From Patescibacteria group bacterium (lineage in GTDB: Bacteria > Patescibacteriota > Gracilibacteria > UBA1369 > PNNO01), in NCBI GenBank assembly GCA_042577965.1, contig JBHPDK010000003.1, positions 9,266-73,265 of the forward strand: a DNA stretch of 64,000 nucleotides, read 5' to 3'. Below, piece after piece: positions 4,276-58,893 of this stretch. The number at the start of each line of letters is the position of its first letter. Position 1 is the first letter of the stretch. The notes below the pieces were generated by a model. The model saw only the letters and a program-made list of their open reading frames with translations, was not told the DNA's origin and ran no database searches. Both the position numbers and the translations under genes were made by a program.

Positions 4276-4310
4276 TTGACCATTGACTATTGACCATTGA
4301 CCATTGATAA
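4276..4310. repeat. Five tandem 7-bp units TTGACCA/TTGACTA/TTGACCA/TTGACCA/TTGATAA, running into overlapping TTGATA/TATCAA palindromes (to about 4341)
   Basis: Direct reading: TTGAC/TTGAT starts at 4276, 4283, 4290, 4297, 4304. TATCAATTGATA is a perfect 12-bp palindrome at 4311-4322. Lies just upstream of the lemA-like ATG (4345). Confidence 0.8.
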
Positions 4311-4344
4311 TATCAATTGATAAATGTTAAATATCAATTGTTAA

Positions 4345-4881
4345 ATGTCAAATGTTATCTTTGTTATTATCGGTGTTTTAGTACTGCTTATGTTTCTGTT
4401 TAGTATCTCAGTGATACATATTCGCGCACTTCGCGATGAAATAAATGTACGTTGGTATAATTTGGTAGATAAGCTTCAGTACAGGCAGGATTTATTTCCA
4501 GTTTTAATTGAAACAGCAAGGCTATTTATAACTAAGAATGCTGATGAATTTGAAACAATGGTTAAGGATACCGTTGCTGTGCGGGCGCGGGCAGGCAAAA
4601 ATACAAAAGCTTCAATGCAAAAAGTTGTTGTTGAGCATGATTTTAGCAGACACTTAAAAGAAATTTTACAATTCAGTGAGCAAATTGATGAGTTAAGAAT
4701 AAATACTAATTATCTAGAAGTTAAAAAACACTTACACGATATTAGTAAAGATCTTGAGAACTTAGCTACTGATTATAATAAAAAGGTAAGAAATCACAAT
4801 AAAGTGATAAAAAGGTTTTACAATGCTTTGCCAGCAACATTACTGGGGTATAAGAAAAGGGCGATTTTTGAGTTTGAATAG
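4345..4881 (+). CDS. LemA family protein
   Basis: N-terminal TM, then WYNLVDKLQYRQDLFPVLIETARLF, which matches the LemA core (W..I...L.RR.DLIPNLVETVK). Confidence 0.7.
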   Translation: MSNVIFVIIGVLVLLMFLFSISVIHIRALRDEINVRWYNLVDKLQYRQDLFPVLIETARLFITKNADEFETMVKDTVAVRARAGKNTKASMQKVVVEHDFSRHLKEILQFSEQIDELRINTNYLEVKKHLHDISKDLENLATDYNKKVRNHNKVIKRFYNALPATLLGYKKRAIFEFE

Positions 4882-25936: not shown

Positions 25937-26563
25937 TTATACTGCTTTTAGAACTACAAAATCAGTGCGGTCTTCAGGCAACGCACTTTTATCGGCAACT
26001 TCATAAGAATCCTGAACTTCGTGTTCAGTAACTCCCATTTCTTTTAATAGAGGTTCAAGTTCAGCATCGTCTTTATAATACATTGGAATTACAACCCGCG
26101 GATCAATTTCTTCAACTGCCTGATGTAATTGTTTTACTGTATATGCTTTTTTTCTTGCAGCTGGAACCATCAAAATATCAACATTTCCAATCTTTCCTAA
26201 GATTTCTTCATCAAGTTCCTGTCCAAGTTCGCCTAAATGACAAATCCTCACATCATCAACAAGTAAACTAAATATTACAATTCTTCCTTTATCAGTATCG
26301 CCTTCTTCTTTATCTTTTGTGTAAGCTGGGATTGCTACAATTGCAGCTCCTTTAACTTCGTATTCTCCAGGCCAGTTTATAACATCTAAATCCTCTGCTC
26401 CTTTTAATAATTTAGCTTTTTCGTGGTAGTCGTCAGTTAATAAAACTGTGTCAGCTTTTAATTCTTTTAATTTATGCTTACCGTCTTCTATAGGATCAAC
26501 AACAACAGTTGTTTTCTTGCCTTTAATAGTGAATGTGCTTTCGCCATGCCAGGTAATTTCCAT
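25937..26563 (-). CDS. MBL-fold metal-dependent hydrolase (UPF0173/COG2220-like)
   Basis: MEITWHGESTFTIKGKKTTVVVDP N-terminus typical of the family; 208 aa. Confidence 0.65.
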   Translation of the reverse strand: MEITWHGESTFTIKGKKTTVVVDPIEDGKHKLKELKADTVLLTDDYHEKAKLLKGAEDLDVINWPGEYEVKGAAIVAIPAYTKDKEEGDTDKGRIVIFSLLVDDVRICHLGELGQELDEEILGKIGNVDILMVPAARKKAYTVKQLHQAVEEIDPRVVIPMYYKDDAELEPLLKEMGVTEHEVQDSYEVADKSALPEDRTDFVVLKAV

Positions 26564-27974: not shown

Positions 27975-28850
27975 ATGGGCCCAGGATCAATCACAACTTT
28001 ACGTAAACAACATATAAAAAAGGCTTTCCCTGCACGTGGCACTGATTCTCATAAAGGCCAAAACGGAAAAGTTTTAATAGTTGGTGGAAGCATTGAATAT
28101 TATGGCGCGCCTTTGCTTAGTGCTCTTGGCGCTTTATATAGCGGTGCTGACTTGGTTTATGTTTATGTGCCGGAATCGAATTTTGATGTTACCCGCAGTT
28201 TGTATCCTGATTTTATTGTGCGGAAATTTCCTGGCCAGTATTTAACTCATCAGGGGGTTGCTGAAATTCTGGAAATGTCTAAAAAATGCGACAGTGTTTT
28301 AATAGGGCCAGGCATGTACGATCGCGAAGTAACTGTTCGCGCTATTTTAGAATTAATCGAAGCACTTGAAGTGCCAACTGTATTGGATTCAACTGCAATT
28401 GAAGTTTTGAAACTGGTAAAAGAAGTGCCATTGAGCCAACCAATTGTGGTGTGCCCTCATAAAAACGAATTCGAAAATTTAACAATGCGTGACATTAAAG
28501 ATAAAAAGGATATTGAAGATTTAATAAAATTTGTTCGTACAATTGCAACTGAAATGCAGATAAATATTTTACTTAAAAGCCCAACTGATGTAGTGGCTTC
28601 GCCAAAAGGAGATGTGGCTTTAAATAAAACCGGTAATGCAGGTTTAACTGTAGGTGGAAGTGGCGATGTTTTAGCAGGTTTGATTGCGTCTTTGATTGCA
28701 CAGGGCGCTGCGCCTTATGAAGCATGTAAGCTTGCAGCTTACTTACTTGGCTTTACAGGTGATTATTTATATAAACAAAAAGATTACTGCTTTAGCGCGA
28801 CTGATTTAGCTTTGGAATTACCTTTTACTATTAGGCAGATAATGCAATAA
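27975..28850 (+). CDS. nnrD: ADP-dependent NAD(P)H-hydrate dehydratase (YjeF C-terminal family)
   Basis: HKGQNGKVLIVGGS...YYGAPLLSALGALYSGADLV and GGSGDVLAG motifs. Confidence 0.85.
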   Translation: MGPGSITTLRKQHIKKAFPARGTDSHKGQNGKVLIVGGSIEYYGAPLLSALGALYSGADLVYVYVPESNFDVTRSLYPDFIVRKFPGQYLTHQGVAEILEMSKKCDSVLIGPGMYDREVTVRAILELIEALEVPTVLDSTAIEVLKLVKEVPLSQPIVVCPHKNEFENLTMRDIKDKKDIEDLIKFVRTIATEMQINILLKSPTDVVASPKGDVALNKTGNAGLTVGGSGDVLAGLIASLIAQGAAPYEACKLAAYLLGFTGDYLYKQKDYCFSATDLALELPFTIRQIMQ

Positions 28851-28987
28851 AAAAGGCCCTGGTTTTTCGTCCAGGGCTCAGAGGGGCTATTGCCCCCATT
28901 CATTCGTCCACCTCATTGTGGGCCTCCGAGTCAAAATGGTTAAAACCAGTTTTGCTTGGTATGGCACCTCCTATGTTGAGTTGACAG
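28846..28987 (-). ncRNA. Mini transcription unit A (candidate sRNA or micro-ORF RNA, ~140 nt)
   Basis: Minus-strand TTGACA (29017-29022)-N17-AATAAT (28994-28999). Contains AGGAGGTGCC. Intrinsic terminator: GCCCTGG/CCAGGGC stem at 28856-28877 followed by U6. Confidence 0.5.
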
Positions 28988-29036
28988 AATGTTATTATTT
29001 CATATTTTGTTAATTTTGTCAAGTATAATATTTCAT

Positions 29037-29223
29037 AAAAAAAGGACCCCACATGATTTAGGTGGGGTCCAAGCCATCGACCGCTTCTTAAACCTGGTCA
29101 TGGTTTACCTCCTCGGGAGGAGTTTGAGGTTGAGGTTTCTAATCAGTTCAGTCGGCACCTCCTGTGCGATGTGGCACGAAAGCCATCACTGTTGCGTCGA
29201 ACCGCGACAGGATGACAAAAACA
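29037..29223 (-). ncRNA. Mini transcription unit B (candidate sRNA or micro-ORF RNA, ~185 nt)
   Basis: Minus-strand TTGACA (29252-29257)-N16-TATAAT (29230-29235). Contains AGGAGGTGCC. Intrinsic terminator: 9-bp GGACCCCAC/GTGGGGTCC stem at 29044-29070 followed by U7. Confidence 0.55.
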
Positions 29224-29250
29224 TAATTCATTATACTTAATTTTAGGATT

Positions 29251-29279
29251 TTGTCAAGTATATTTTTATGTTATATTAT
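29251..29279 (+). promoter_or_regulatory. Promoter TTGTCA-N17-TATTAT for pgeF; its -35 overlaps the minus-strand -35 of unit B
   Basis: TTGTCA 29251-29256; TATTAT 29274-29279. The ATG at 29285 is only 5 nt after the -10, which implies a leaderless or near-leaderless mRNA. Confidence 0.5.
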
Positions 29280-29284
29280 GAAGC

Positions 29285-29998
29285 ATGAAAACTGAAATTA
29301 TTAAACAAATTTTTACTCGGGAAGGAGGCGCAAGCCATCCCCCTTATGACTCTTTAAATGTACGTTTTGGCATTGGTGATAACGAAGATGATGTTCTTGA
29401 AAATCGGCGTCGGATTTGTGAAGAGCTTAGGATTGAAATGGGACAACTTGTTAGTTTGAATCAAGTCCATAGTGATCGACTTTTGTATGTTGATGAATTG
29501 GTTCAGGGTGAAATTGATGGATATGACGCTATGATCACTGATGTTAATGAGATTTTCCTTATGATTCAGGTTGCGGATTGTCAGGCAGTTATGATTTGGG
29601 ACCCTAAAGCTGAGGTTGTTGCAAATGTTCATAATGGATGGAAAGGTTCAGTACAAAATATTGTTGGAAAAACTGTACATAAAATGATTGAGGATTTTGG
29701 ATGTGAGCCAAAAAATATCAAAGTTGAGGTTTCGCCTTCACTTGGGCCGTGTCATGCTGAGTTTAGTGATCCATATAATGAACTGCCTAAAGAACTACAT
29801 GAGTTTATTGATGAAAATAATCATGTGGATTTTTGGAAAACCACAGAAAAACAATGTATGGATGAAGGAATTAAGCGAAAAAATATAAAAATCGCGCAAA
29901 TTTGTACTGTTTGCAATAAAAATAAATATTTTTCGCATAGAGCTGATATAAATAAACAAGGCACAGGAAGATTTGCATCTGTAATCGGAATGAGATAG
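29285..29998 (+). CDS. pgeF: Peptidoglycan editing factor / purine nucleoside phosphorylase YfiH (DUF152, LACC1 family)
   Basis: NQVHSD, ADCQAV, HNGWKGS, GPCHAEF. Confidence 0.8.
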   Translation: MKTEIIKQIFTREGGASHPPYDSLNVRFGIGDNEDDVLENRRRICEELRIEMGQLVSLNQVHSDRLLYVDELVQGEIDGYDAMITDVNEIFLMIQVADCQAVMIWDPKAEVVANVHNGWKGSVQNIVGKTVHKMIEDFGCEPKNIKVEVSPSLGPCHAEFSDPYNELPKELHEFIDENNHVDFWKTTEKQCMDEGIKRKNIKIAQICTVCNKNKYFSHRADINKQGTGRFASVIGMR

Positions 29999-30089: not shown

Positions 30090-30380
30090 ATGGACATCTA
30101 TAATTGGTTCGGAATAATCGGTACAGTATTTATTATTATTGGTGTAATTATGCTGCCATGGTTCAAGGATACAGGTTTTGCTGGCCTGGTTATTATTGGT
30201 GGACTATTTATGCAATTCCTGCACGTATTAATAAAATACGACAAGTACAGTTATTCAAATATTATCTCTGGTAGTATCTTCTTCTTTTTTTTAGCGCTCT
30301 ATGTTTTTATTAAAACTGCAAAAGTGCCTGAAGATGAAAAAACCACTGACAACCCGAGTGAAAGCCACGATGATCAATAG
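30090..30380 (+). CDS. Hypothetical small membrane protein
   Basis: 96 aa with 3 hydrophobic spans and an acidic tail. Confidence 0.4.
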   Translation: MDIYNWFGIIGTVFIIIGVIMLPWFKDTGFAGLVIIGGLFMQFLHVLIKYDKYSYSNIISGSIFFFFLALYVFIKTAKVPEDEKTTDNPSESHDDQ

Positions 30381-30381
30381 T

Positions 30382-30411
30382 CCTCGCGGAGCGCATTTGC
30401 GCTCCGCGAGG
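30382..30411 (+). terminator. Perfect 13-bp-stem hairpin CCTCGCGGAGCGC-ATTT-GCGCTCCGCGAGG (terminator-like or REP-like)
   Basis: Direct reading. Starts 1 nt after the upstream stop. No strong U-tract follows (caatcttct). Confidence 0.35.
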
Positions 30412-30432
30412 CAATCTTCTAAAATACAAACC

Positions 30433-49263: not shown

Positions 49264-49910
49264 GGCTTTCTAAAGTTAAAAAAATAATTGAAAAAATAAA
49301 ATCGGTTTGATTTAACGTCTAAACCAAATAAGACGTATATGTTAATGTTGCCAGCCGCTTTAAAAGCAGCAAACAACGGATTGTTGTTATACTTTCTTTC
49401 TGCCTGATTTTCAATGAGCGAATATATATAATAAGGTATGTATTTACGTTTATGACACGCAATAAGATTAGGCCCTCTTACGAGAACTCATTAAACTACC
49501 GGTTTTTCGCTATATTCAGATGGATTTTAAACAATTGAAAGTGCTTCGTCAATGCTATAAATTCGCTTTTCTCTTTATTCTAAGCGCCTTTTTTGCTATC
49601 ACATAATAATCTTTTCTTTCCTGCAATTTGGCTTTATCGTCTCTATATTAAGCTTTTTGCACTTCGTTCTAATTCACTAAAAAAAACTACAAATAGTGCA
49701 TTTTGTTTCGAAAATTGAATTGACAGGCCGGAGCTTTGACGCGTGATTCAAATACGCACCGATGTTTGCGAAGTTTTGCGAAGTATAGATAAATAGTACA
49801 TTCTAATTTTTGCTAGCTTTTTGCTAGCTTTTTTAGAGTGCATTGGTGTGTAATTTAAAAAATTACCGGGTAATTCCATTTAGCTCGGCACGCTTCGCAT
49901 GCTGCGCTCC

Positions 49911-52058: not shown

Positions 52059-52101
52059 CCAGAGCGCAGCGAGGCTTTAAGCCGAGCGGAGCGGAAATAT
52101 A

Positions 52102-52126
52102 ACACGCAAATGCGTGTCTTTTTTTT
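52102..52126 (+). terminator. Intrinsic terminator after tRNA-Lys
   Basis: ACACGC-AAAT-GCGTGT stem followed by C plus T8. Confidence 0.6.
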
Positions 52127-52185: not shown

Positions 52186-55100
52186 CTATTGCGTGGAATA
52201 TGAAGAGCCCACCTCAGCCGCAGCAGCAGCTGCATCTTTTTCTTTTAGTAAACTAACTAATCTTTCTATTGCGAATATGAACTCGCCTCTTTCGTTGTCT
52301 TGTAAATCAATTCGTAATTGTTCAATTAATGCATCGTTTCTCATGATTGTATTCGAATGCCTGTTAACAAAATCTGATGCAGCTACTAGCCAGATCATTC
52401 GGGCATCAAGCGCGAATACTTCACCTCTTACCGCTGGATTATCTGCAAATGTAAATCTTGCTGGCGGGAAGTTGAATCTAACAAGATCAGTTAAGTTTTC
52501 ACAATCATATTCAGCTGCAAGCTCTCTTACATTCATTTCTGAATCATCAAAATCAGATGCTTCAACTACTTCTCTTGGCAAACACATTTCAGCATCAAGT
52601 TCAGTACATGAATACCCCGCAGCCATTGTTCTAATTGCCATTTCCTCTGTTGGGGCATAATCATCAAAACCATTAGCTAAAGCTAATTCTTCCGGTATAC
52701 ATACATCAGCTACAATCTTATTTTTTACTACCATTGGAATATATTGCGCATACCATTCATTTGGATCAGCATCATAGTAATAACTTCCCCATTTTGCTAT
52801 TGCTGCTTCCAGAATTTGTTCAGGAGTTAAGTTCTCGTCATCTTCTTCACCATGAAACTCCGCAAACCCAACTAATTCTTCCGGTGTGTACATAATTCTG
52901 TTTCTTGGGTCATAATCAAATGCATTTACGAATACTTTTAGTATTTCAGCACGAGTTATTTGATCTTCCCATTGTGCCTGCCATTCTCCATCATTACTTG
53001 AATCAACCATTAATGATTTATCCAACACTAATCTACCATCAATAATTCCCTTATCGTAAGCTGTATAGAATACATTTGTAATAAAATTCAATGTCTCTTT
53101 GTCTATTCTTTTATAATCCGGATGAGCACCAGTTACTCTACGAGGAAGTTCAGGAAAATCAGGTCTCGCGGTTAGTAATTCGCCTGCTTCAAGCCTTAGT
53201 TCATTTGTATAAATAGGTATACAAGCTGAAGTAAGTGCGATTTTTACTGTTTCAAATCTGTTTGTTAATTGAAGAGGTCTGATAGTTGTATCGTTTGTTG
53301 CATCAGAACTACCATAAAATGAGCCGCTTCCACTGATAATAAATTGATCTTTATCAGTCAGGTATATTCTACTTAAGAAATCCACATAATCCTTGGTCCA
53401 GATTTCTTCATTATCTGTATAAAGAACTTCTCTTAAAGGATTAAATTCAAGACATGTTTCCTGAGGTGGACCTGGATGTACTGGCGTAGGTCCGCCTGGA
53501 GGTGGTTCAAGTTTACAATGTTTATTACAACCATCACCATCTTGTCTGTTTCCATCATCACATTCTTCATTTGCTTCTACCTTGTTATTACCGCAAGATG
53601 AGCCGCCTGGAGGACGACTACCACCCTGAACCTCTACAGAGACTGTAGCAAGGCCTGAAACAGCTCCGTCATTGTCTTCAATTGTATATGTAAAGCTGTC
53701 ATTACCTACAAAACCACTATCAGGAGTATAAGTTACTTCTCCTGTTTGTGGATCTACTGATACTGTCCCATTTGGTGGCTCATCAACAATAGTTACTGTA
53801 GTTGGATCAATTGTTCCATCAGGATCTTCATCATTATTTGGAACATCGATAGTTACATCCTGACCTGCCGGAGTAGTAGCGCTGTCATTATTTGCTACCG
53901 GAGGGTCATTAACATCATTTACTCTTATTGAAACAGTTGCAGTATTAGAAGTTGCCGAGTCATCATCATCTACTTCGTATGTAAAGCTGTCTGAACCATT
54001 GTAATCAGAATCAGGAGTATAAGTTACAACACCTGTTGCCGGATGTACTGATGTGCTTCCATTATCAACATCATCAAGTATTACTACTGTTGTTGGATCA
54101 ATTGTTCCGTCTACATCTGTGTCATTTGCAGTTACATCAATATCAACAGGCACATCTTCATCTGTTGTTTCACTATCATCATTTGCTATTGGAGGATCAT
54201 TTACATCATTTATTGTTATGAAAACTGTTGCTTCGTTTGAAACAGCAGCATCATCATCTTCAATTGTATAAGTAAAGCTGTCACCGCCATGGTAATCTGC
54301 ATTCGGAGAATAAGTAATCACACCAGTACTTGCATTAATACCAGGAACACCATTTGCCGGAGGGATAACAATAGTTACTGTAGTTAAGTTAAGTGTACCG
54401 TCAATATCTGTGTCATTTCCAGGTACATTAATTGGAACAGGAGTGTCTTCATCTGTTGTTGCATTATCATTTACCGCAACCGGAGGATCATTAATTGGAT
54501 CAACAGTTAATGTAACAGTTGCTGTATTTGAAGTTGCTGAGTCATCATCATTAACTTTATAAGTGAATAAATCTGAACCATTATAGTTTGCATCAGGAGT
54601 ATAAGTTACAACTCCGGTAGTTGGATCAACATAAAGCGATCCATGAGCAGGATCATCAACAATAACTACGGTTGTTGGATCAACTGTTCCGTCTACATCT
54701 GTATCATTTGCAGTTACATCAACATCAACTGGCACATCTTCATCTGTTGTTTCACTATCATCATTTGCTATCGGAGGATCATTTACATCATTTATTGTAA
54801 TATCTACTGTTGCTTCATTTGAGATATTACCTTCATCATCCCGTATTTTGTATGTAAAAGAATCGCTTCCAAAGAAATCTGCATCTGGTGTATATGTTAC
54901 AACACCTGTTGTTGGATTAACTGAAACCAAACCATCTGATGGAGGAGTTTCAATTGATACTGTTGTTGGGTCAATTGTACCGTCAGGATCTGTATCATTA
55001 GCTGGCACATTTATATCAACAGGAGTATCTTCGTTTGTTGTTTCGCTGTCATCATTTGCTGTTGGAGGATCAACCACAGGCCCTATATTAATTGTTACAG

Positions 55101-58100
55101 TTGCTGTGTTTGACGTAGCTCCGTCATCATCCTGAATTGTGTATGTAAAGCTGTCTGAGCCATTATAATTCTCGTCTGGAGTATATGTTACAACTCCATT
55201 CCCAGGATTCACTGATACCAAGCCATGCGCTGGATCATCTATAATTTGTACAGTTGTCTGATCAACTGTTCCATCGATATCTGTATCATTAACTTTAACA
55301 TCAATTCCAACTGGAACATCTTCATCAGTTGAAGCAGTGTCATCATTTGCAATTGGAGGATCATTCACGTCATTAATTGTAATATTTACAGTTGCTGTGT
55401 TTGATGTAGCTCCGTCATCATCATCAATTGTATATGTGAATAAATCTGAACCATTATAATCAGCATCTGGTGTATAAGTTACTGCTCCAGTAGCTGGATT
55501 AACCTCAACAGTACCGTGAGTTGGATCATCCACTATTGCTACTGTTGTTAAATCAACAAATCCATCTATATCTGTATCATTAGAAGGAACATTTATAATA
55601 ACAGGATCATCTTCATCAGTTGTTCCACTGTCATTATTTGCAATTGGAGGATCATTTACATCATTAATTGTAATAGTTACTGTTGCTGCATTTGAAGTAG
55701 CTCCGTCATCATCATCAATTGTATAAGTGAAGCTGTCACCGCCATTGTAATTTAAATCAGGTGTATAAGTAATTTCACCTGTTGTTGGATTAACTGAAAC
55801 ACCGCCATTTGAAGGAGGAGTAGCAATTGCTACAGTTGTTGGATCAACTGTTCCGTCTATATCTGTATCATTCGCTGGAACATCAATTCCAACAGGTGTG
55901 TCTTCATCTGTTGTTTCGCTGTCGTCATTTGCAATTGGAGGATCATTTACATCATTAATTGTAATAGTTACTGTTGCTGTATTTGAAGTAGCCGAGTCAT
56001 CATCATCAATTGTATAAGTAAATATATCTGAACCATTATAATTTAAGTCTGGTGTATATGTTACTGCTCCAGTAGTTGGATTAACTGAAACAGATCCATG
56101 AGCAGGATCATCAACAATAGCTACAGTTGTTAGATCAACTGTTCCATCAACATCTGTATCATTCGCTGGAACATCAACTATAACTGGTGTGTCTTCGTCA
56201 GTTGAATCACTGTCATTATTTGCAACCGGAGGATCATTTACGTCATTTATTGTGATTGTTACAGTTGCAACATTTGAAATATTTCCATCATTATCATTGA
56301 CTGTATATGTAAAGCTGTCACTGCCATTGTAATTTAAATCAGGAGTATAAGTTACAACACCTGTTGTTGGATTAACTGATACACCACCGTCTGATGGTAA
56401 ATCTACAATTGCCACAGTTGCATCATCAATTGTTCCATCAGGGTCTGTATCATTTGCAGGTACATCAATGTCAACAGGTGTGTCTTCGTTTGTTGTTGCA
56501 CTGTCATCATTTGCAGTTGGAGGATCAACTACAGCACCAATATTAATTGTTACTGTTGCTGTGTTTGAAGTAGCCCCGTCATCATCATCAATTGTATATG
56601 TAAAACTGTCGCTGCCATTGTAATTTAAATCAGGTGTATATGTTACTACTCCAGTTGTTGGATTAACTGAAACACCGCCATCAGTTGGATGGTCTACGAT
56701 GGTTACTGTTGTTAGATCAACTGTCCCATCAATATCTGTATCATTTGCAGGTACATCAATATCAACCGCAACATCCTCATTTGTACTTGCAGTATCATCA
56801 TTTGCCACAGGAGGATCATTAACATCATTTATTGTGATTGTTACTGTTGCAACATTTGAAGTTGCTCCGTCATTATCATCAATTGTATATGTAAAACTGT
56901 CGCTGCCATTGTAATCGGCATCAGGTGTATATGTTACAACTCCTGTAGTTGGATTTACTGAAACACCGCCATCAGTTGGATAATCAACTATTGTTACAGT
57001 TGTTGGATCAAGAATTCCATCTACATCTGTATCATTAGCTTTTACAACAATTCCAACCGCTGTATCTTCGTTTGTAGTCGCAGTATCATTATTTGCAACA
57101 GGAGGGTCATTTACATCATTTATTGTGATTGTTACTGTTGCAACATTTGAAGTTCCCCCATCATTATCATCAATTGTGTATGTAAAACTGTCGCTGCCAT
57201 TGTAATTTAAATCCGGTGTATATGTTGCTACTCCAGTTGTTGGATTAACTGAAACGCTGCCATTAGAAGGCAGATCAACAATAATCACTGAAGTTAAATT
57301 TAAAGTTCCGTCTGAATCTGTATCATTTGAAGGCACATTAATAAGAACAGGTGTGTCTTCATCTGTAGTTGCACTGTCATCATTTGCTACTGGATCATCA
57401 TTAACACAGGTTACTGTTACATAAACTGTTGCTTCGTTAGAAGTTGCCGAGTCATTATCATCGATTGTATATGTGAATTCATCACTCCCGCAATATTCTG
57501 CATCAGGAGTATAAGTAACGCCTCCTGTACTTGGATTAACTGAAGTTGATCCATTTGTTGGACCACCTGTTACAGTAACAGATGATAGATCTAAAGTTCC
57601 ATCTATATCATCATCATTTGCAGGTACATCAATTACCACTGAATCATCTTCATCCACAGTTGCAAAATCATCATTTGCAACCGGAGGGTCATTTACATCA
57701 TTTACTGTAACGGTTACTGTTGCAATATTTGAAGTTGCACCGTCATCATCATCAATTGTGTATGTAAAACTGTCGCTGCCATTAAAATTTAAATCAGGAG
57801 TATAAGTTACTTCACCTGTTGTTGGATTAACTGAAACCGATCCATCAGATGGATGAGCAACAATAGCTACTGTAGTTAAATCTAAAGTTCCGTCTGAATC
57901 TGAATCGTTTGAAGGTACATTTATTCCTACTGGTGTATCTTCGTCTGTTGTTGCGCTGTCATCATTTGCTGTTGGAGGATCGTTTACATCACTAATTGTG
58001 ATTGTTACTGTTGCTTCATTCGAAGTATCTGCATCATTATCATCAATTGTGTAAGTAAAAGAATCTAAGCCATTATAACCTGCATTAGGTGTATAAGTCA

Positions 58101-58893
58101 CAACTCCTGTAGTTGGATTTACTGAAGTTGAGCCATTTGAAGGTCCGCCTGTTACAACTACTGTTGTTAAATCTAAAGTTCCGTCTGAATCTGTATCATT
58201 TGCAGGCACATCAATAAGAACTGAGGTGTCTTCGTCTGTTGATGCACTATCATCGTTTGCTACCGGAGGATCATTTATATCTATATAAACTGTAACAGTT
58301 GCCTGATTTGATACAGCCCCAAGGTTATCTCTAACACTGTATTGGAATGTATCAATACCACTAAAGTCTGTATCAGGAGTATAAGTTACAACTCCGGTTA
58401 CAGGATCAACCGAAACTGTTCCGTCGCCAGGTAAATCTGTAATTTGCACTGTTGTTGTATCAATTGTGCCGTCAGCATCTGTATCATTTGCCGTTACATC
58501 AATATCTACAGCTACATTAAGATCCGTAACTGCAGAATCATCATTTGCAACCGGAATCTCATTGGTCCCATACAAATTACAATCGTCATCATCAATATCT
58601 CCATCTTCATCCAAATCAAGTGCCGGGATAATATCCCCATGGTGCTGACTGTGATCATTTCCTCCCAATCCATCTATAGCAGTAGGACTTACTGATAAGT
58701 AAGTATAAGGATTAGATGATGAGCCAGTTACATGACAAATATCAATAGCTTCACCACTAGGTGCAGAAAAAGTTGTCATATATAATGCAGAAGCCACTAT
58801 GACTCCTAAAAAAACCACACTTGCTTTAATGTGCGGATGCCACTTTTTCAATTTAGAAAAGGGACTTTTAGGTGTTGCGTTACCTTTTTTCAT
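52186..58893 (-). CDS. Giant surface protein (2235 aa): signal-anchor, 17 tandem ~95-aa cadherin-like (tandem-95 type) repeats, Cys-rich CGNxxxExxEECDDGN repeat, SLH-like C-terminal region
   Basis: Repeat consensus VNDPPVANDDSATTDEDTPVxIDVPANDTDxDGTxDxTTVxIVxxPxxGxVSVNPTTGVVTYTPDxNYNGSDSFTYTIDDDDGATSNxATVTITI. Also CGNNKVEANEECDDGNRQDGDGCNKHC, and a C-terminal WTKDYVDFLSRIYL...ISGSG...TNRFETVKIAL segment. Confidence 0.85.
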   Translation of the reverse strand: MKKGNATPKSPFSKLKKWHPHIKASVVFLGVIVASALYMTTFSAPSGEAIDICHVTGSSSNPYTYLSVSPTAIDGLGGNDHSQHHGDIIPALDLDEDGDIDDDDCNLYGTNEIPVANDDSAVTDLNVAVDIDVTANDTDADGTIDTTTVQITDLPGDGTVSVDPVTGVVTYTPDTDFSGIDTFQYSVRDNLGAVSNQATVTVYIDINDPPVANDDSASTDEDTSVLIDVPANDTDSDGTLDLTTVVVTGGPSNGSTSVNPTTGVVTYTPNAGYNGLDSFTYTIDDNDADTSNEATVTITISDVNDPPTANDDSATTDEDTPVGINVPSNDSDSDGTLDLTTVAIVAHPSDGSVSVNPTTGEVTYTPDLNFNGSDSFTYTIDDDDGATSNIATVTVTVNDVNDPPVANDDFATVDEDDSVVIDVPANDDDIDGTLDLSSVTVTGGPTNGSTSVNPSTGGVTYTPDAEYCGSDEFTYTIDDNDSATSNEATVYVTVTCVNDDPVANDDSATTDEDTPVLINVPSNDTDSDGTLNLTSVIIVDLPSNGSVSVNPTTGVATYTPDLNYNGSDSFTYTIDDNDGGTSNVATVTITINDVNDPPVANNDTATTNEDTAVGIVVKANDTDVDGILDPTTVTIVDYPTDGGVSVNPTTGVVTYTPDADYNGSDSFTYTIDDNDGATSNVATVTITINDVNDPPVANDDTASTNEDVAVDIDVPANDTDIDGTVDLTTVTIVDHPTDGGVSVNPTTGVVTYTPDLNYNGSDSFTYTIDDDDGATSNTATVTINIGAVVDPPTANDDSATTNEDTPVDIDVPANDTDPDGTIDDATVAIVDLPSDGGVSVNPTTGVVTYTPDLNYNGSDSFTYTVNDNDGNISNVATVTITINDVNDPPVANNDSDSTDEDTPVIVDVPANDTDVDGTVDLTTVAIVDDPAHGSVSVNPTTGAVTYTPDLNYNGSDIFTYTIDDDDSATSNTATVTITINDVNDPPIANDDSETTDEDTPVGIDVPANDTDIDGTVDPTTVAIATPPSNGGVSVNPTTGEITYTPDLNYNGGDSFTYTIDDDDGATSNAATVTITINDVNDPPIANNDSGTTDEDDPVIINVPSNDTDIDGFVDLTTVAIVDDPTHGTVEVNPATGAVTYTPDADYNGSDLFTYTIDDDDGATSNTATVNITINDVNDPPIANDDTASTDEDVPVGIDVKVNDTDIDGTVDQTTVQIIDDPAHGLVSVNPGNGVVTYTPDENYNGSDSFTYTIQDDDGATSNTATVTINIGPVVDPPTANDDSETTNEDTPVDINVPANDTDPDGTIDPTTVSIETPPSDGLVSVNPTTGVVTYTPDADFFGSDSFTYKIRDDEGNISNEATVDITINDVNDPPIANDDSETTDEDVPVDVDVTANDTDVDGTVDPTTVVIVDDPAHGSLYVDPTTGVVTYTPDANYNGSDLFTYKVNDDDSATSNTATVTLTVDPINDPPVAVNDNATTDEDTPVPINVPGNDTDIDGTLNLTTVTIVIPPANGVPGINASTGVITYSPNADYHGGDSFTYTIEDDDAAVSNEATVFITINDVNDPPIANDDSETTDEDVPVDIDVTANDTDVDGTIDPTTVVILDDVDNGSTSVHPATGVVTYTPDSDYNGSDSFTYEVDDDDSATSNTATVSIRVNDVNDPPVANNDSATTPAGQDVTIDVPNNDEDPDGTIDPTTVTIVDEPPNGTVSVDPQTGEVTYTPDSGFVGNDSFTYTIEDNDGAVSGLATVSVEVQGGSRPPGGSSCGNNKVEANEECDDGNRQDGDGCNKHCKLEPPPGGPTPVHPGPPQETCLEFNPLREVLYTDNEEIWTKDYVDFLSRIYLTDKDQFIISGSGSFYGSSDATNDTTIRPLQLTNRFETVKIALTSACIPIYTNELRLEAGELLTARPDFPELPRRVTGAHPDYKRIDKETLNFITNVFYTAYDKGIIDGRLVLDKSLMVDSSNDGEWQAQWEDQITRAEILKVFVNAFDYDPRNRIMYTPEELVGFAEFHGEEDDENLTPEQILEAAIAKWGSYYYDADPNEWYAQYIPMVVKNKIVADVCIPEELALANGFDDYAPTEEMAIRTMAAGYSCTELDAEMCLPREVVEASDFDDSEMNVRELAAEYDCENLTDLVRFNFPPARFTFADNPAVRGEVFALDARMIWLVAASDFVNRHSNTIMRNDALIEQLRIDLQDNERGEFIFAIERLVSLLKEKDAAAAAAEVGSSYSTQ
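53640..58557 (-). repeat. 17 tandem ~285-bp coding repeats inside the giant gene
   Basis: Counted 17 ANDD/ANND repeat starts in the translation. The DNA shows recurrent near-identical blocks (e.g. aatgatgtaaatgatcctcc on the reverse complement). Confidence 0.85.

What the first reader, a model, noticed from the sequence alone, without database searches (positions are those of the whole stretch)
28846..29223. Two tandem promoter-to-terminator mini transcription units antisense to their neighbours, sharing AGGAGGTGCC
**What the sequence shows**
- Both units sit on the minus strand between nnrD(+) and pgeF(+).
- Unit B: TTGACA-N16-TATAAT (29230-29257), about 185 nt, then a 9-bp GC stem plus U7 (29037-29070).
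- Unit A: TTGACA-N17-AATAAT (28994-29022), about 140 nt, then a 7-bp GC stem plus U6 (28846-28877).
- No minus-strand gene lies downstream, so these are not 5' leaders.
- Both carry the identical 10-mer AGGAGGTGCC (plus strand ggcacctcct at 28964-28973 and 29155-29164), and each carries a second GGAGG.

**Possible micro-ORFs**
- In unit B, GAGGAGG-6 nt-ATG opens a 22-codon ORF (MTRFKKRSMAWTPPKSCGVLFL). Its SD is paired with an upstream CUCCU (hairpin at about 29109-29123).
- In unit A, GGAGG-6 nt-ATG opens a 9-codon ORF (MRWTNEWGQ).

**Why it stands out**
- Strong SD-like sequences are conspicuous here because almost none of the bona fide genes in this window has one. I checked the regions upstream of lspA, ftsW, mutL, eno, metK, dnaJ, the S-layer gene and the giant gene.
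- The conserved box ATTTTGTCAAGTATA (29013-29027 and 29248-29262) supplies TTGACA for the minus strand. At 29251 it also supplies TTGTCA for the plus-strand pgeF promoter, whose -10 ends 5 nt before the ATG. That implies leaderless pgeF.

**Possible roles (inference only):** sRNAs, micro-protein genes, a type I toxin-antitoxin-like pair, or ribosome/CsrA-type decoys.
Basis: seen in the sequence. Interest (0 to 1): 0.7.

Follow-up and report, generated by a model that had tools for sequence, protein, structure and literature searches.

The report
Two small-gene cassettes in a CPR bacterium
A 434-base spacer in a Peregrinibacteria (CPR) genome holds two unannotated small genes, a mini-mRNA for a conserved 9-residue tryptophan-rich peptide and a structured ~185-nt RNA, which carry the only strong ribosome-binding sequences found in this 64-kb window; their function is unknown.

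Summary
Two minus-strand units, each running from a promoter to a terminator, sit between nnrD and pgeF.

The organism is a Peregrinibacteria-type CPR bacterium. In many relatives nnrD and pgeF overlap by one base, so the 434-bp block looks like an accessory insertion. Five lineages carry it, always at this junction.

- **Unit A (~138 nt).** It recurs in all five lineages. Its 9-codon ORF keeps a core M-(K/R)-W-x-(N/D)-E-W, and apart from the free fourth codon the changes are only synonymous or conservative. The 5' UTR hairpin drifts. I read unit A as a mini-mRNA or dual-function sRNA.
- **Unit B (~186 nt).** It is a distant paralogue of A. Against a 97%-NnrD relative, its 85-nt core differs at 2 sites, whereas neutral sites differ by 29%. 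Every substitution is in a loop, compensatory or wobble. Its 22-codon ORF is not conserved, so B is a structured non-coding RNA.

Rfam gives no family hit. A trp-type attenuator, a type I toxin-antitoxin pair and an L10 leader were each tested and not met.

Gene starts in this window essentially lack Shine-Dalgarno sequences (1 of 37), so the four GGAGG boxes stand out. The outer promoter box probably also drives a leaderless pgeF.

Function is unknown, and I could not test transcription or translation. I class it as a new member of a known kind, of moderate interest.

The parts
29230..29257 (-). Unit B promoter, TTGACA-16-TATAAT. The -35 lies inside the shared box TATACTTGACAAAAT.
   Evidence: 12/12. 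The same promoter is 12/12 in L025 and in L020 unit D.
29037..29222 (-). Unit B RNA, about 186 nt: a structured non-coding RNA. The transcription start is inferred from the -10 element.
   Evidence: The 85-nt core differs at 2 sites from L025, against 29% at neutral sites (P about 1e-10).
29182..29216 (-). Unit B helix P1, the 5' hairpin.
   Evidence: A G-C pair becomes A-U in L025, a compensatory change.
29154..29163 (-). Unit B 5' SD-like box AGGAGGTGCC. No start codon follows it. Its GAGGU is predicted to pair with ACCUC (helix P3, 29132-29161).
29108..29120 (-). Unit B helix P4: CCUCC pairs with GGAGG, so the second SD is sequestered. A conserved, apparently single-stranded C/U-rich stretch at 29121-29131 precedes it.
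29074..29103 (-). Unit B helix P5, CCAUGACC...GGUCGAUGG, which encloses the 'start codon'.
   Evidence: A C-G pair becomes U-A in L025, a compensatory change that alters the 'ORF' (T to I).
29037..29070 (-). Unit B intrinsic terminator: 9-bp stem, 9-nt loop, U7.
   Evidence: All loop substitutions in L025 leave the stem intact.
28994..29022 (-). Unit A promoter, TTGACA-17-AATAAT with an extended TG, and the same 15-nt box.
   Evidence: The box and the -10 are conserved in L005, L015, L020 and L025.
28849..28986 (-). Unit A RNA, about 138 nt: a mini-mRNA or dual-function sRNA. The transcription start is inferred.
28963..28972 (-). Unit A 5' SD-like box AGGAGGTGCC, about 15-25 nt from the inferred 5' end. 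No start codon follows it. Its GG.UGCC is predicted to pair with GGCCC at the true SD.
   Evidence: no ATG, GTG or TTG within 4-12 nt; helix 1, 100% paired, no covariation.
28917..28927 (-). Unit A Shine-Dalgarno GGAGG plus a 6-nt spacer.
   Evidence: GGAGG lies 5-6 nt before the ATG in all five lineages.
28887..28916 (-). Unit A micro-ORF MRWTNEWGQ*.
   Evidence: The orthologues read MKWTNEWGQ, MKWINEWG, MKWHDEWPDKG and MKWHDEWPCKG. Synonymous changes: AAG/AAA, GAT/GAC, GAA/GAG, ACG/ACA.
28881..28898 (-). Unit A post-ORF hairpin. It starts inside the second Trp codon.
   Evidence: Two columns switch G-C to C-G, while the encoded residue changes from Gly to Pro.
28849..28877 (-). Unit A intrinsic terminator. 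Its U-tract runs to within two bases of the nnrD stop codon.
   Evidence: Compensatory pairs are shown.
29251..29287 (+). pgeF promoter TTGTCA-17-TATTAT, which shares the palindromic TTGNCAA with the unit B -35. The ATG at 29285 lies 5 nt after the -10, which predicts a leaderless mRNA.
   Evidence: Equivalent -10-like hexamers lie 4-6 nt before the ATG in L005, L015, L020 and L025.

Best explanation
The 434-bp spacer is an accessory insertion. It split an ancestral nnrD-pgeF gene pair, which overlaps by one base in relatives, in a subset of closely related Peregrinibacteria.

It carries two self-contained minus-strand small genes. Each has a near-consensus sigma-70-type promoter, sharing the -35 box ACTTGACAAAAT, and an intrinsic terminator.

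**Unit A** is a mini-mRNA, possibly also a regulatory RNA. A strong SD (GGAGG, 5-6 nt upstream of the ATG) drives an 8-11-codon ORF. Its product keeps the core M-(K/R)-W-x-(N/D)-E-W. A hairpin that begins in the second Trp codon and a terminator close the transcript.

**Unit B** is a diverged paralogue that works purely as a structured RNA of five helices plus a terminator. Its SD and AUG are buried in stems.

**The 5' box.** Each unit also has, near its 5' end, an 8-nt perfect complement to the canonical 16S 3' tail (AGGAGGUG), with no start codon behind it. Gene starts in the window otherwise lack SD sequences. I therefore infer that this box docks 30S subunits, acting as a STAB-SD-like stabiliser or standby site. 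In unit A it is partly paired with the true SD, so it could gate translation.

**pgeF.** The outermost promoter box is palindromic (TTGNCAA) and also supplies the -35 for a new plus-strand promoter. That promoter would give pgeF a leaderless mRNA.

**Shown:** the motifs, their conservation, purifying selection, the secondary structure, and the presence/absence pattern. **Inferred:** transcription, translation, 30S docking, and any cellular role of the peptide or of RNA B.
For: **Insertion**
- nnrD and pgeF overlap by one base in L001, L002, L009, L016, L018 and L023.
- The units are present at the same junction in the window, L025, L005-8, L015 and L020/21.
- L005 carries the units yet has 94% identical NnrD to the unit-less L001, L009 and L018.

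**Promoters, terminators and the box**
- Promoters and terminators.
- Across 23 loci, the box occurs only at these units.

**Unit A is coding**
- Five orthologous peptides share the 7-residue core, and the third-position changes in codons 2, 4 (ACG/ACA, window vs L025), 5 and 6 are synonymous.
- Between the window and L025, the ORF keeps its peptide while the UTR hairpin is about half changed.
- No overlapping ORF has a Pfam hit.

**Unit A structure**
- 91.6% of cells are paired, against 83.6% in shuffles.
- The covariation score is 0.308 against 0.173 (0 of 500 shuffles reach it).
- The slid-partner controls score far lower.

**Unit B is non-coding**
- 2 of 85 core differences against 29% at four-fold sites, P = 1.6e-10.
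- About 20 changed columns, none of which breaks a predicted pair; 2 are compensatory.
- The ORF is not conserved.

**Paralogy:** nhmmer with the A profile hits B at E = 1e-4, and hits the L025 B at 1e-3.

**SD context**
- 1 of 37 long ORFs has a 4-mer SD core.
- No start codon lies 4-12 nt after either 5' box.
- The STAB-SD precedent is described in PMC4113751.
- The Peregrinibacteria clade usually lacks bS21, while the anti-SD is generally retained in CPR bacteria (PMC9297842).
Against: - There is no expression, translation or peptide evidence of any kind.
- Only five lineages are known, two of which are close pairs, so covariation and codon statistics rest on few events.
- The 5' box is predicted to be partly base-paired in both units. 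This sits uneasily with simple 30S docking.
- The 16S 3' end and RNase J of this organism were not seen.
- Parts of the unit A ORF also lie in RNA helices: the 5' end pairs with codons 3-4 in the predicted folds, and the post-ORF hairpin overlaps the ORF end. RNA constraints could therefore mimic some of the coding signal.
- An 8-11-residue peptide with no partner gene nearby has no obvious job.
- Unit B is found only in the window and L025. Its orthology to unit D of L020 rests on the promoter and a short motif.
Confidence: 0.55

Rival explanations
1. Both units are purely non-coding, trans-acting or protein-binding small RNAs. On this reading the apparent ORF in unit A is conserved only because those nucleotides form helices or a seed, and the GGAGG boxes are structural.
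For: - The post-ORF hairpin shows RNA-level covariation while the encoded residue flips from Gly to Pro.
- In the minimum-energy folds the transcript's 5' end pairs with codons 3-4 in all the orthologues folded.
- Unit B shows that the same architecture can be non-coding.
- Genes in this window do not use SD sequences, so GGAGG-N6-AUG need not mean translation.
Against: - Third-position changes in codons 2, 5 and 6 are all synonymous, and the first- and second-position changes are R/K and N/D only.
- The SD-to-AUG spacing is kept at 5-6 nt in five lineages, and the 21-nt core has no indels, although the flanks have several.
Confidence: 0.2
2. Unit A is a ribosome-mediated sensor of the trpL attenuator or arrest-peptide type. 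Ribosome progress over the two Trp codons would decide whether transcription reads through the terminator. Read-through would enter the next unit or run antisense into nnrD-eno.
For: - Two Trp codons lie among seven conserved codons.
- A hairpin overlaps the end of the ORF and is followed by a terminator.
- In L015 and L020 the segments GGCCC / GGGCU / AGCCCCC / GGGGGCU could pair 1:2, 2:3 and 3:4.
- rnTrpL/peTrpL shows that attenuator RNAs and their leader peptides can act in trans (PMC7968998 and PMC7298713, listed).
Against: - Folding with a ribosome parked at W3 or W7 leaves the terminator intact in the four orthologues folded (window, L025, L005, L015; the script stopped before L020). No antiterminator appears in the window, L025 or L005.
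- The distance from the stop codon to the terminator varies from 4 to 26 nt.
- No minus-strand gene lies downstream.
- Residues other than Trp are also conserved.
Confidence: 0.1
3. The units are 30S (anti-SD) sponges. They would be abundant RNAs whose perfect AGGAGGUG boxes titrate free 30S subunits or the 16S 3' tail, in an organism whose mRNAs do not use SD sequences.
For: - There are four GGAGG boxes in 434 bp, against 0.29 expected.
- Two are 8-nt perfect complements to the canonical anti-SD and have no start codon behind them.
- The window's genes are SD-free.
- Both promoters are near consensus.
Against: - There are only two boxes per RNA, and both are predicted to be partly paired.
- The box is altered to UGGAGGUGCU in L025 unit A.
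- The cassette is dispensable in close relatives.
Confidence: 0.08
4. It is a functionless remnant or a mobile promoter-terminator insert. Its only selected effect would be to uncouple pgeF from eno-nnrD and give it a promoter.
For: - Presence is patchy among close relatives, and always at one junction.
- The same junction holds an unrelated 552-579-residue ORF in L012 and L014.
- The box doubles as the pgeF -35.
Against: There is strong purifying selection inside both transcribed bodies, far from the pgeF promoter, and compensatory changes in stems.
Confidence: 0.05
5. The two units form a type I toxin-antitoxin-like pair, with one unit encoding a toxic peptide and the other an antisense RNA.
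For: Two adjacent small transcripts; SD sequestration in unit B.
Against: - The unit A peptide is 8-11 residues and charged, not a membrane helix.
- The unit B ORF is not conserved.
- The units are tandem, not overlapping. The A-B duplex energy is no better than shuffles in L025: 78% of shuffles do as well.
- L015 has unit A alone.
Confidence: 0.02

Closest known systems
Dual-function small RNAs and small-ORF genes (for example SR1/SR1P and RNAIII/hld; reviews PMC12310071 and PMC12612679, listed)
   Same: A short, independently transcribed RNA bounded by a terminator, with conserved structure, that also carries a conserved small ORF behind a real SD.
   Different: The ORF is only 8-11 codons, well below the usual 25-45. 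No base-pairing target is known. There is no sequence or Rfam relationship. The element is an accessory cassette in a CPR lineage.
rnTrpL / peTrpL of Sinorhizobium meliloti (PMC7968998, PMC7298713)
   Same: An RNA of about 110-140 nt made up of a Trp-codon-containing mini-ORF, a hairpin and a terminator. It exists as a free RNA, and its leader peptide has its own function.
   Different: rnTrpL is released from a genuine attenuator upstream of trpE(G). Here there is no downstream gene and no antiterminator, the Trp codons are not adjacent, and the neighbouring residues are conserved too.
STAB-SD 5' mRNA stabiliser of Bacillus thuringiensis cry3A (PMC4113751)
   Same: [quoted passage not shown]
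   Different: STAB-SD acts in an SD-using Firmicute with RNase J1. Here the genome region is SD-free, the box is predicted to be partly paired, and neither RNase J nor stabilisation was tested.
The lone strong SD of rpsU in Flavobacterium johnsoniae (PMC9976891, PMC13000453)
   Same: An organism whose genes lack SD sequences keeps a very few strong SDs, and those few mark specially regulated translation.
   Different: There the anti-SD is sequestered by bS21 and the SD gene is rpsU itself. The Peregrinibacteria clade mostly lacks bS21 (PMC9297842), and the SD-led ORF here is a 9-codon orphan.
Rfam L10_leader (RF00557)
   Same: A weak colinear match of unit B, covering ACAGGAGGUG, CUCCUCCCGAGG and the terminator.
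   Different: It scores 23.6 bits (window) and 16.1 bits (L025), against a gathering score of 44. No rplJ lies downstream. I treat the match as noise.

Membership tests
Ribosome-mediated transcription attenuator (trpL type) | A leader ORF enriched in the regulatory codon. | tested here: met
   Two Trp codons lie among the seven conserved codons in all five orthologues.
Ribosome-mediated transcription attenuator (trpL type) | An antiterminator helix that is mutually exclusive with the terminator and is favoured when the ribosome stalls. | tested here: not met
   Constraint folding with a ribosome at W3 or W7 keeps the terminator in the four orthologues folded. Only L015 and L020 have a possible 2:3 pairing, seen by eye.
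Ribosome-mediated transcription attenuator (trpL type) | A regulated gene downstream on the same strand. | tested here: not met
   The terminator abuts the convergent nnrD stop codon. The next minus-strand ORF starts at 26563.
Type I toxin-antitoxin | A small, hydrophobic, membrane-active toxin ORF that is conserved. | tested here: not met
   The unit A peptide is 8-11 residues with K, N/D and E. The unit B ORF is not conserved and loses its stop in L025.
Type I toxin-antitoxin | An antisense RNA complementary to the toxin mRNA. | tested here: not met
   The units are tandem and co-oriented. RNAduplex of B against A gave 3.7% of shuffles as good in the window and 78% in L025. This is a crude full-length test.
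Rfam L10_leader RF00557 | A covariance-model score at or above the gathering threshold (44 bits), and a position upstream of rplJ. | tested here: not met
   23.6 bits with E = 0.17 and 16.1 bits with E = 3 in L025. No rplJ lies downstream.
Housekeeping RNAs (6S, SRP, RNase P, tmRNA, tRNA) | A match to the Rfam model or to ARAGORN. | tested here: not met
   The gathering-threshold scan found only three tRNAs elsewhere in the window. E-value scans up to 10 over the spacer and its orthologues gave nothing for these families. ARAGORN found nothing.
Csr/Rsm-type protein-sponge RNA | Many GGA motifs presented in hairpin loops. | tested here: not met
   Each unit has two GGAGG boxes, and both are predicted to lie in stems. 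Whether csrA is present was not examined.
STAB-SD-type 5' stabiliser | An SD-like sequence near the 5' end that is not followed by a start codon. | tested here: met
   The boxes at 28963-72 and 29154-63 have no ATG, GTG or TTG within 4-12 nt downstream. In unit A the box lies about 15-25 nt from the inferred transcription start.
STAB-SD-type 5' stabiliser | Pairing with the organism's own 16S 3' end, and protection from a 5'-3' exonuclease. | not testable with these tools
   Neither 16S rRNA nor RNase J is in the window. The complementarity is to the canonical CACCUCCU only (general knowledge, plus PMC9297842 for anti-SD retention in most CPR bacteria).
Small-ORF gene / dual-function sRNA | An ORF conserved at the amino-acid level with synonymous substitutions, and a retained ribosome-binding site. 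| tested here: met
   Five orthologues share the core M(K/R)Wx(N/D)EW. The synonymous pairs AAG/AAA, GAT/GAC, GAA/GAG and ACG/ACA occur, and GGAGG lies 5-6 nt upstream in all. The sample is small.
Small-ORF gene / dual-function sRNA | Evidence of translation. | not testable with these tools
   This needs Ribo-seq, a reporter fusion or peptidomics.

The most novel reading that the evidence does not exclude
In a bacterium whose mRNAs have abandoned Shine-Dalgarno initiation but whose ribosomes probably keep a free anti-SD (the clade usually lacks bS21), these cassettes would be a dedicated anti-SD-addressed system. Highly expressed RNAs would capture 30S subunits through perfect AGGAGGUG boxes. 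One of them would use that exclusive channel to make a conserved 8-11-residue Trp-rich peptide. Together they would form a horizontally exchanged translation-control module with no described counterpart.
Probability: 0.1. Interest if true: 0.8.

Novelty: new member of a known kind. Interest (0 to 1): 0.5.

Why it matters
- I found no characterised regulatory small RNA or micropeptide from Candidate Phyla Radiation bacteria (one literature search). This gives two concrete candidates backed by comparative evidence, with exact coordinates and testable predictions.
- They carry the only strong Shine-Dalgarno sequences in a 64-kb stretch whose genes lack them. That makes them a natural probe of what SD/anti-SD pairing is still used for in such lineages.
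- The locus also shows how an inserted cassette can break a translationally coupled gene pair and rescue the downstream gene with a leaderless mRNA.
- The caveat is a narrow distribution: five lineages, at one junction, and dispensable in sister genomes. The biological reach may therefore be small.

Tried and rejected
**Known families and collections**
- Rfam at gathering thresholds over the whole window, and in E-value mode on the spacer and on the L020 and L025 orthologues: no credible family. L10_leader scored 23.6 and 16.1 bits against a threshold of 44.
- ARAGORN: nothing in the spacer.
- Plasmid collection: no match.
- Phage collection: only a 55-nt promoter-region match to phi29-like Bacillus phages. 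I judge it to be convergent strong-promoter sequence.

**Searches for more copies**
- Metagenome scan with AGGAGGTGCC-N-AAGC-N-GGTTTTAA: one hit (L019), the 5' UTR of an unrelated long ORF, taken as chance.
- Viral scans with box-plus-10-mer and with SD-plus-peptide patterns: nothing, or a chance in-ORF hit.
- Window and 23 loci: no further copies of the box, the 10-mer or the units by pattern search or nhmmer. No other M(K/R)Wx(N/D)EW ORF was found apart from the chance phage hit.

**Hypotheses tested and dropped**
- The micro-ORF is an N-terminal remnant of the 552-residue ORF that fills the same junction in L012 and L014. Rejected: that protein starts MPTCNQC.
- Trp attenuator: constraint folding gave no antiterminator.
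- Base pairing between B and A: not above shuffles.
- SRP-like and 23S GTPase-centre-like resemblances in unit B, noticed by eye: not supported by any model and not pursued.

**Other checks**
- Pfam on the overlapping ORFs (83 residues on the plus strand, 50 on the minus strand): no hits.
- Orthology of unit B with unit D of L020: the promoters are near identical, but the bodies align no better than shuffles. This is left open.
Full report
**1. The observation**

The spacer between the nnrD-like ORF (27975-28850, +) and the pgeF-like ORF (29285-29998, +) is 434 bp. A consensus scan of 3 kb around it ranks two minus-strand promoters first:
- TTGACA-16-TATAAT at 29257..29230 (12/12);
- TTGACA-17-AATAAT with an upstream TG at 29022..28994 (11/12).

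The scan also finds the unit A terminator at 28877..28856 plus T6. The unit B terminator has a 9-bp stem, a 9-nt loop and U7 at 29070..29037. It is plain in the sequence but lies outside the scan's loop limit.

The 15-nt box is at the stated places. Both micro-ORFs read as stated.

On their own the two short repeats are weak evidence: 3/100 and 12/100 shuffles match them. The context is not weak.
- The transcribed bodies are 49-51% G+C, against 36% for the window and 16-18% for the promoter spacers.
- Four minus-strand GGAGG fall in the spacer where 0.29 are expected (P about 2e-4).
- Both RNAs fold better than shuffles (z = -3.0 and -2.8).

**2. Organism and locus history**

PgeF and NnrD homologues place the window in Candidatus Peregrinibacteria / Patescibacteria. 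The window's own PgeF is an NCBI 'Patescibacteria group bacterium' protein on a 74-kb contig.

The eno-nnrD-pgeF-ispDF neighbourhood is conserved, but the nnrD|pgeF junction is not.

| State of the junction | Loci |
|---|---|
| nnrD and pgeF overlap by one base | L001, L002, L009, L016, L018, L023 |
| An unrelated 552-579-residue Cys-rich minus-strand ORF | L012-L014 |
| pgeF absent | L026, L028 |
| Minus-strand small units | window, L025, L005-8, L015, L020/21 |

L005 carries the units, yet its NnrD is 94% identical to those of the unit-less L001, L009 and L018. In a PgeF tree the carriers are not monophyletic.

The simplest reading is an accessory cassette inserted into an ancestral overlapping (probably translationally coupled) gene pair. 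It would then have moved among relatives by homologous recombination through the flanking genes. That last step is inference.

**3. Unit A is conserved and looks coding**

All five lineages share the same parts:
- the -35 box (T)ATACTTGACAAA;
- the extended -10;
- a 5' SD-like box (TAGGAGGTGCC; TGGAGGTGCT in L025);
- a hairpin;
- GGAGG 5-6 nt before an ATG;
- a short ORF;
- a hairpin that starts in the last conserved codon;
- a terminator ending close to the nnrD stop codon.

The five peptides are MRWTNEWGQ, MKWTNEWGQ, MKWINEWG, MKWHDEWPDKG and MKWHDEWPCKG.

Within the seven-codon core, the substitutions fall as follows:
- the third-position changes in codons 2, 5 and 6, and ACG/ACA in codon 4, are synonymous (AAG/AAA, GAT/GAC, GAA/GAG, ACG/ACA);
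- the first- and second-position changes are R/K and N/D;
- only codon 4 is free.

There are no indels in the 21-nt core, although the flanks have several.

L025 gives a neutral yardstick: its NnrD is 97% identical and its four-fold sites differ by 29% from the window. Against L025 the peptide is kept (R to K, two synonymous changes, TAG to TGA), while the 5' UTR hairpin is about half replaced.

RNA structure is also constrained. On the five sequences the RNAalifold consensus has 91.6% of cells paired, against 83.6% in column shuffles. Its covariation score is 0.308 against 0.173 (0 of 500 shuffles reach it), and the slid-partner controls collapse.

The post-ORF hairpin switches GGGG/CCCC to GGCC/GGGC while the encoded residue changes from Gly to Pro. 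Beyond codon 7, therefore, it is the RNA that is selected, not the peptide.

Helix 1 pairs GG.UGCC of the 5' box with GGCCC at the true SD. It is invariant except for wobble changes, so it is compatible with the structure but unproven.

**4. Unit B is a structured non-coding paralogue**

A three-sequence profile of unit A hits unit B colinearly, from promoter through box, second SD and ATG to terminator, at E = 1e-4. It hits the L025 unit B at 1e-3.

Unit B is present in the window and in L025. Its 85-nt core, from ACAGUGAUGG to CCCGAGGAGG, differs at 2 positions where about 25 are expected (P = 1.6e-10). The longest identical run is 52 nt.

The two-sequence consensus has five helices and the terminator. 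About 20 columns changed, and none breaks a predicted pair. Two changes are double compensatory (G-C to A-U in P1, C-G to U-A in P5) and two give G-U pairs. The G-U pairs fit the minus strand only.

The second SD is paired with CCUCC (helix P4), and the AUG sits in helix P5.

The 22-codon ORF has 5 non-synonymous and 4 synonymous differences, and it runs on to 47 codons in L025. I conclude that it is not a gene.

L020 has a unit D whose promoter is almost identical to that of unit B, including the spacer and the +1 region. Its body aligns no better than shuffles, apart from GGAG(G)UAnnCCAUGACCwGGU. Orthology is possible but open. L005 has a different short unit C.

**5. What it is not**

| Candidate | Result |
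|---|---|
| Any Rfam family | None reaches threshold. The L10_leader hit on unit B (23.6 bits; 16.1 in L025; threshold 44) is driven largely by the terminator, and there is no rplJ. |
| trp-type attenuator | Two Trp codons and an ORF-overlapping hairpin suggest one. But a ribosome parked at either Trp codon leaves the terminator as the optimal fold in the four orthologues folded. The stop-to-terminator distance varies from 4 to 26 nt, and nothing lies downstream on that strand. |
| Type I toxin-antitoxin | No hydrophobic toxin, co-oriented non-overlapping units, no A-B duplex signal in L025, and unit A occurs alone in L015. |
| Csr-type sponge | Only two GGA boxes per unit, both predicted in stems. 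|
| Overlapping protein-coding ORFs | No Pfam match. |

**6. The Shine-Dalgarno context**

Of 37 ORFs of at least 180 codons in the window, one has GGAG, GAGG or AGGA in the 15 nt before its first ATG (2.7%). Inside ORFs the figure is 10.2% of control windows. Of 86 GGAGG pentamers, about one precedes a plausible long-ORF start.

Published surveys report that the Peregrinibacteria / Gracilibacteria / Absconditabacteria clade usually lacks bS21, while the anti-SD is generally retained in CPR bacteria outside one Parcubacteria subgroup (PMC9297842). In Bacteroidia, SD-blind ribosomes keep a lone strong SD on rpsU for autoregulation (PMC9976891 and PMC13000453).

By analogy, the few strong SDs here should mark something special. 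The 5' boxes have no start codon within 4-12 nt. They resemble the STAB-SD 5' stabiliser, which binds 30S subunits and blocks RNase J1 (PMC4113751).

I could not see this organism's 16S 3' end or its RNase J. That step is inference.

**7. The effect on pgeF**

The box contains the palindrome TTGNCAA. On the plus strand it gives TTGTCA-17-TATTAT, which ends 5 nt before the pgeF ATG. In all five carrier lineages a -10-like hexamer (TATTAT or TAAATT) ends 4-6 nt before the ATG.

Where the cassette is absent, pgeF overlaps nnrD and has no room for a promoter. A leaderless pgeF mRNA made from a promoter that arrived with, or arose next to, the cassette is therefore a reasonable inference.

**8. Verdict**

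The finding is real. It is supported by comparative evidence and matched no Rfam family or Pfam domain. Mechanistically it remains open.

My best account has confidence 0.55:
- unit A is a 30S-addressed mini-mRNA for a conserved micropeptide;
- unit B is a structured sRNA paralogue;
- both are carried on an accessory cassette that also re-promotes pgeF.

The main rival, at 0.2, is that both units are purely non-coding. The kind of thing, small RNA and small-ORF genes, is known; this family is new. Its distribution is narrow. I score interest at 0.5.

Noticed in passing
window, whole 64 kb (gene starts listed): Gene starts are essentially free of Shine-Dalgarno sequences. Only 1 of 37 long ORFs has a 4-mer SD core in the 15 nt before its first ATG, which is below the 10% background. 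The upstream regions are A/T-rich.
   Followed up: partly
L012 2961-4619 (-) and L014 751-2490 (-): In two relatives the same nnrD|pgeF junction holds a 552-579-residue Cys-rich ORF (it starts MPTCNQCK and has many CxxC motifs). It has no Pfam match, and it is unrelated to the small units.
   Followed up: partly
window 28988-29042, compared with Bacillus phage Stitch KX349901.1 about 120-170 (L029 401-451): The unit A promoter region is 87% identical over about 55 nt (E = 2e-6) to a region near the left end of 21 phi29-like Bacillus phages. That region lies just downstream of a terminator-like hairpin. It is probably convergent strong sigma-A promoter sequence, but the match is striking.
   Followed up: partly
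window 30090-30413; L005 about 4279-4583: Downstream of pgeF lies a conserved small membrane-type ORF (96 residues, no Pfam hit). It is followed by a conserved perfect inverted repeat, GTCCTCGCGGAGCGCATTTGCGCTCCGCGAGGC.
   Followed up: no
window about 53900-58265: A motif (GGAGGATCATTTACATCATT on the plus strand) recurs with a strict 291-nt period, about 15 times, inside the 2235-residue minus-strand ORF. This implies a 97-residue tandem domain repeat.
   Followed up: no
window 49870-49910 and 52059-52120: G+C-rich blocks with an AGCGCAGC-type motif follow directly after tRNA-Glu and tRNA-Lys. One ends in a terminator-like hairpin. I found no clear repeat family.
   Followed up: partly
L026 and L028, 3870-4270: Some relatives have lost pgeF altogether. 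In these, nnrD abuts ispDF or is followed by the small membrane ORF. pgeF is therefore dispensable in this clade.
   Followed up: no
L005 3262-3430 (-): L005 has a third kind of short unit (C). It has TTGACA-17-CATACT, the hairpin AAUCCGUACUAGUACGGGAUU, and GGGGAGGUGAUUUUU with no ORF. It may be a decayed relative of unit B, with which it shares ACTGAACT.
   Followed up: no
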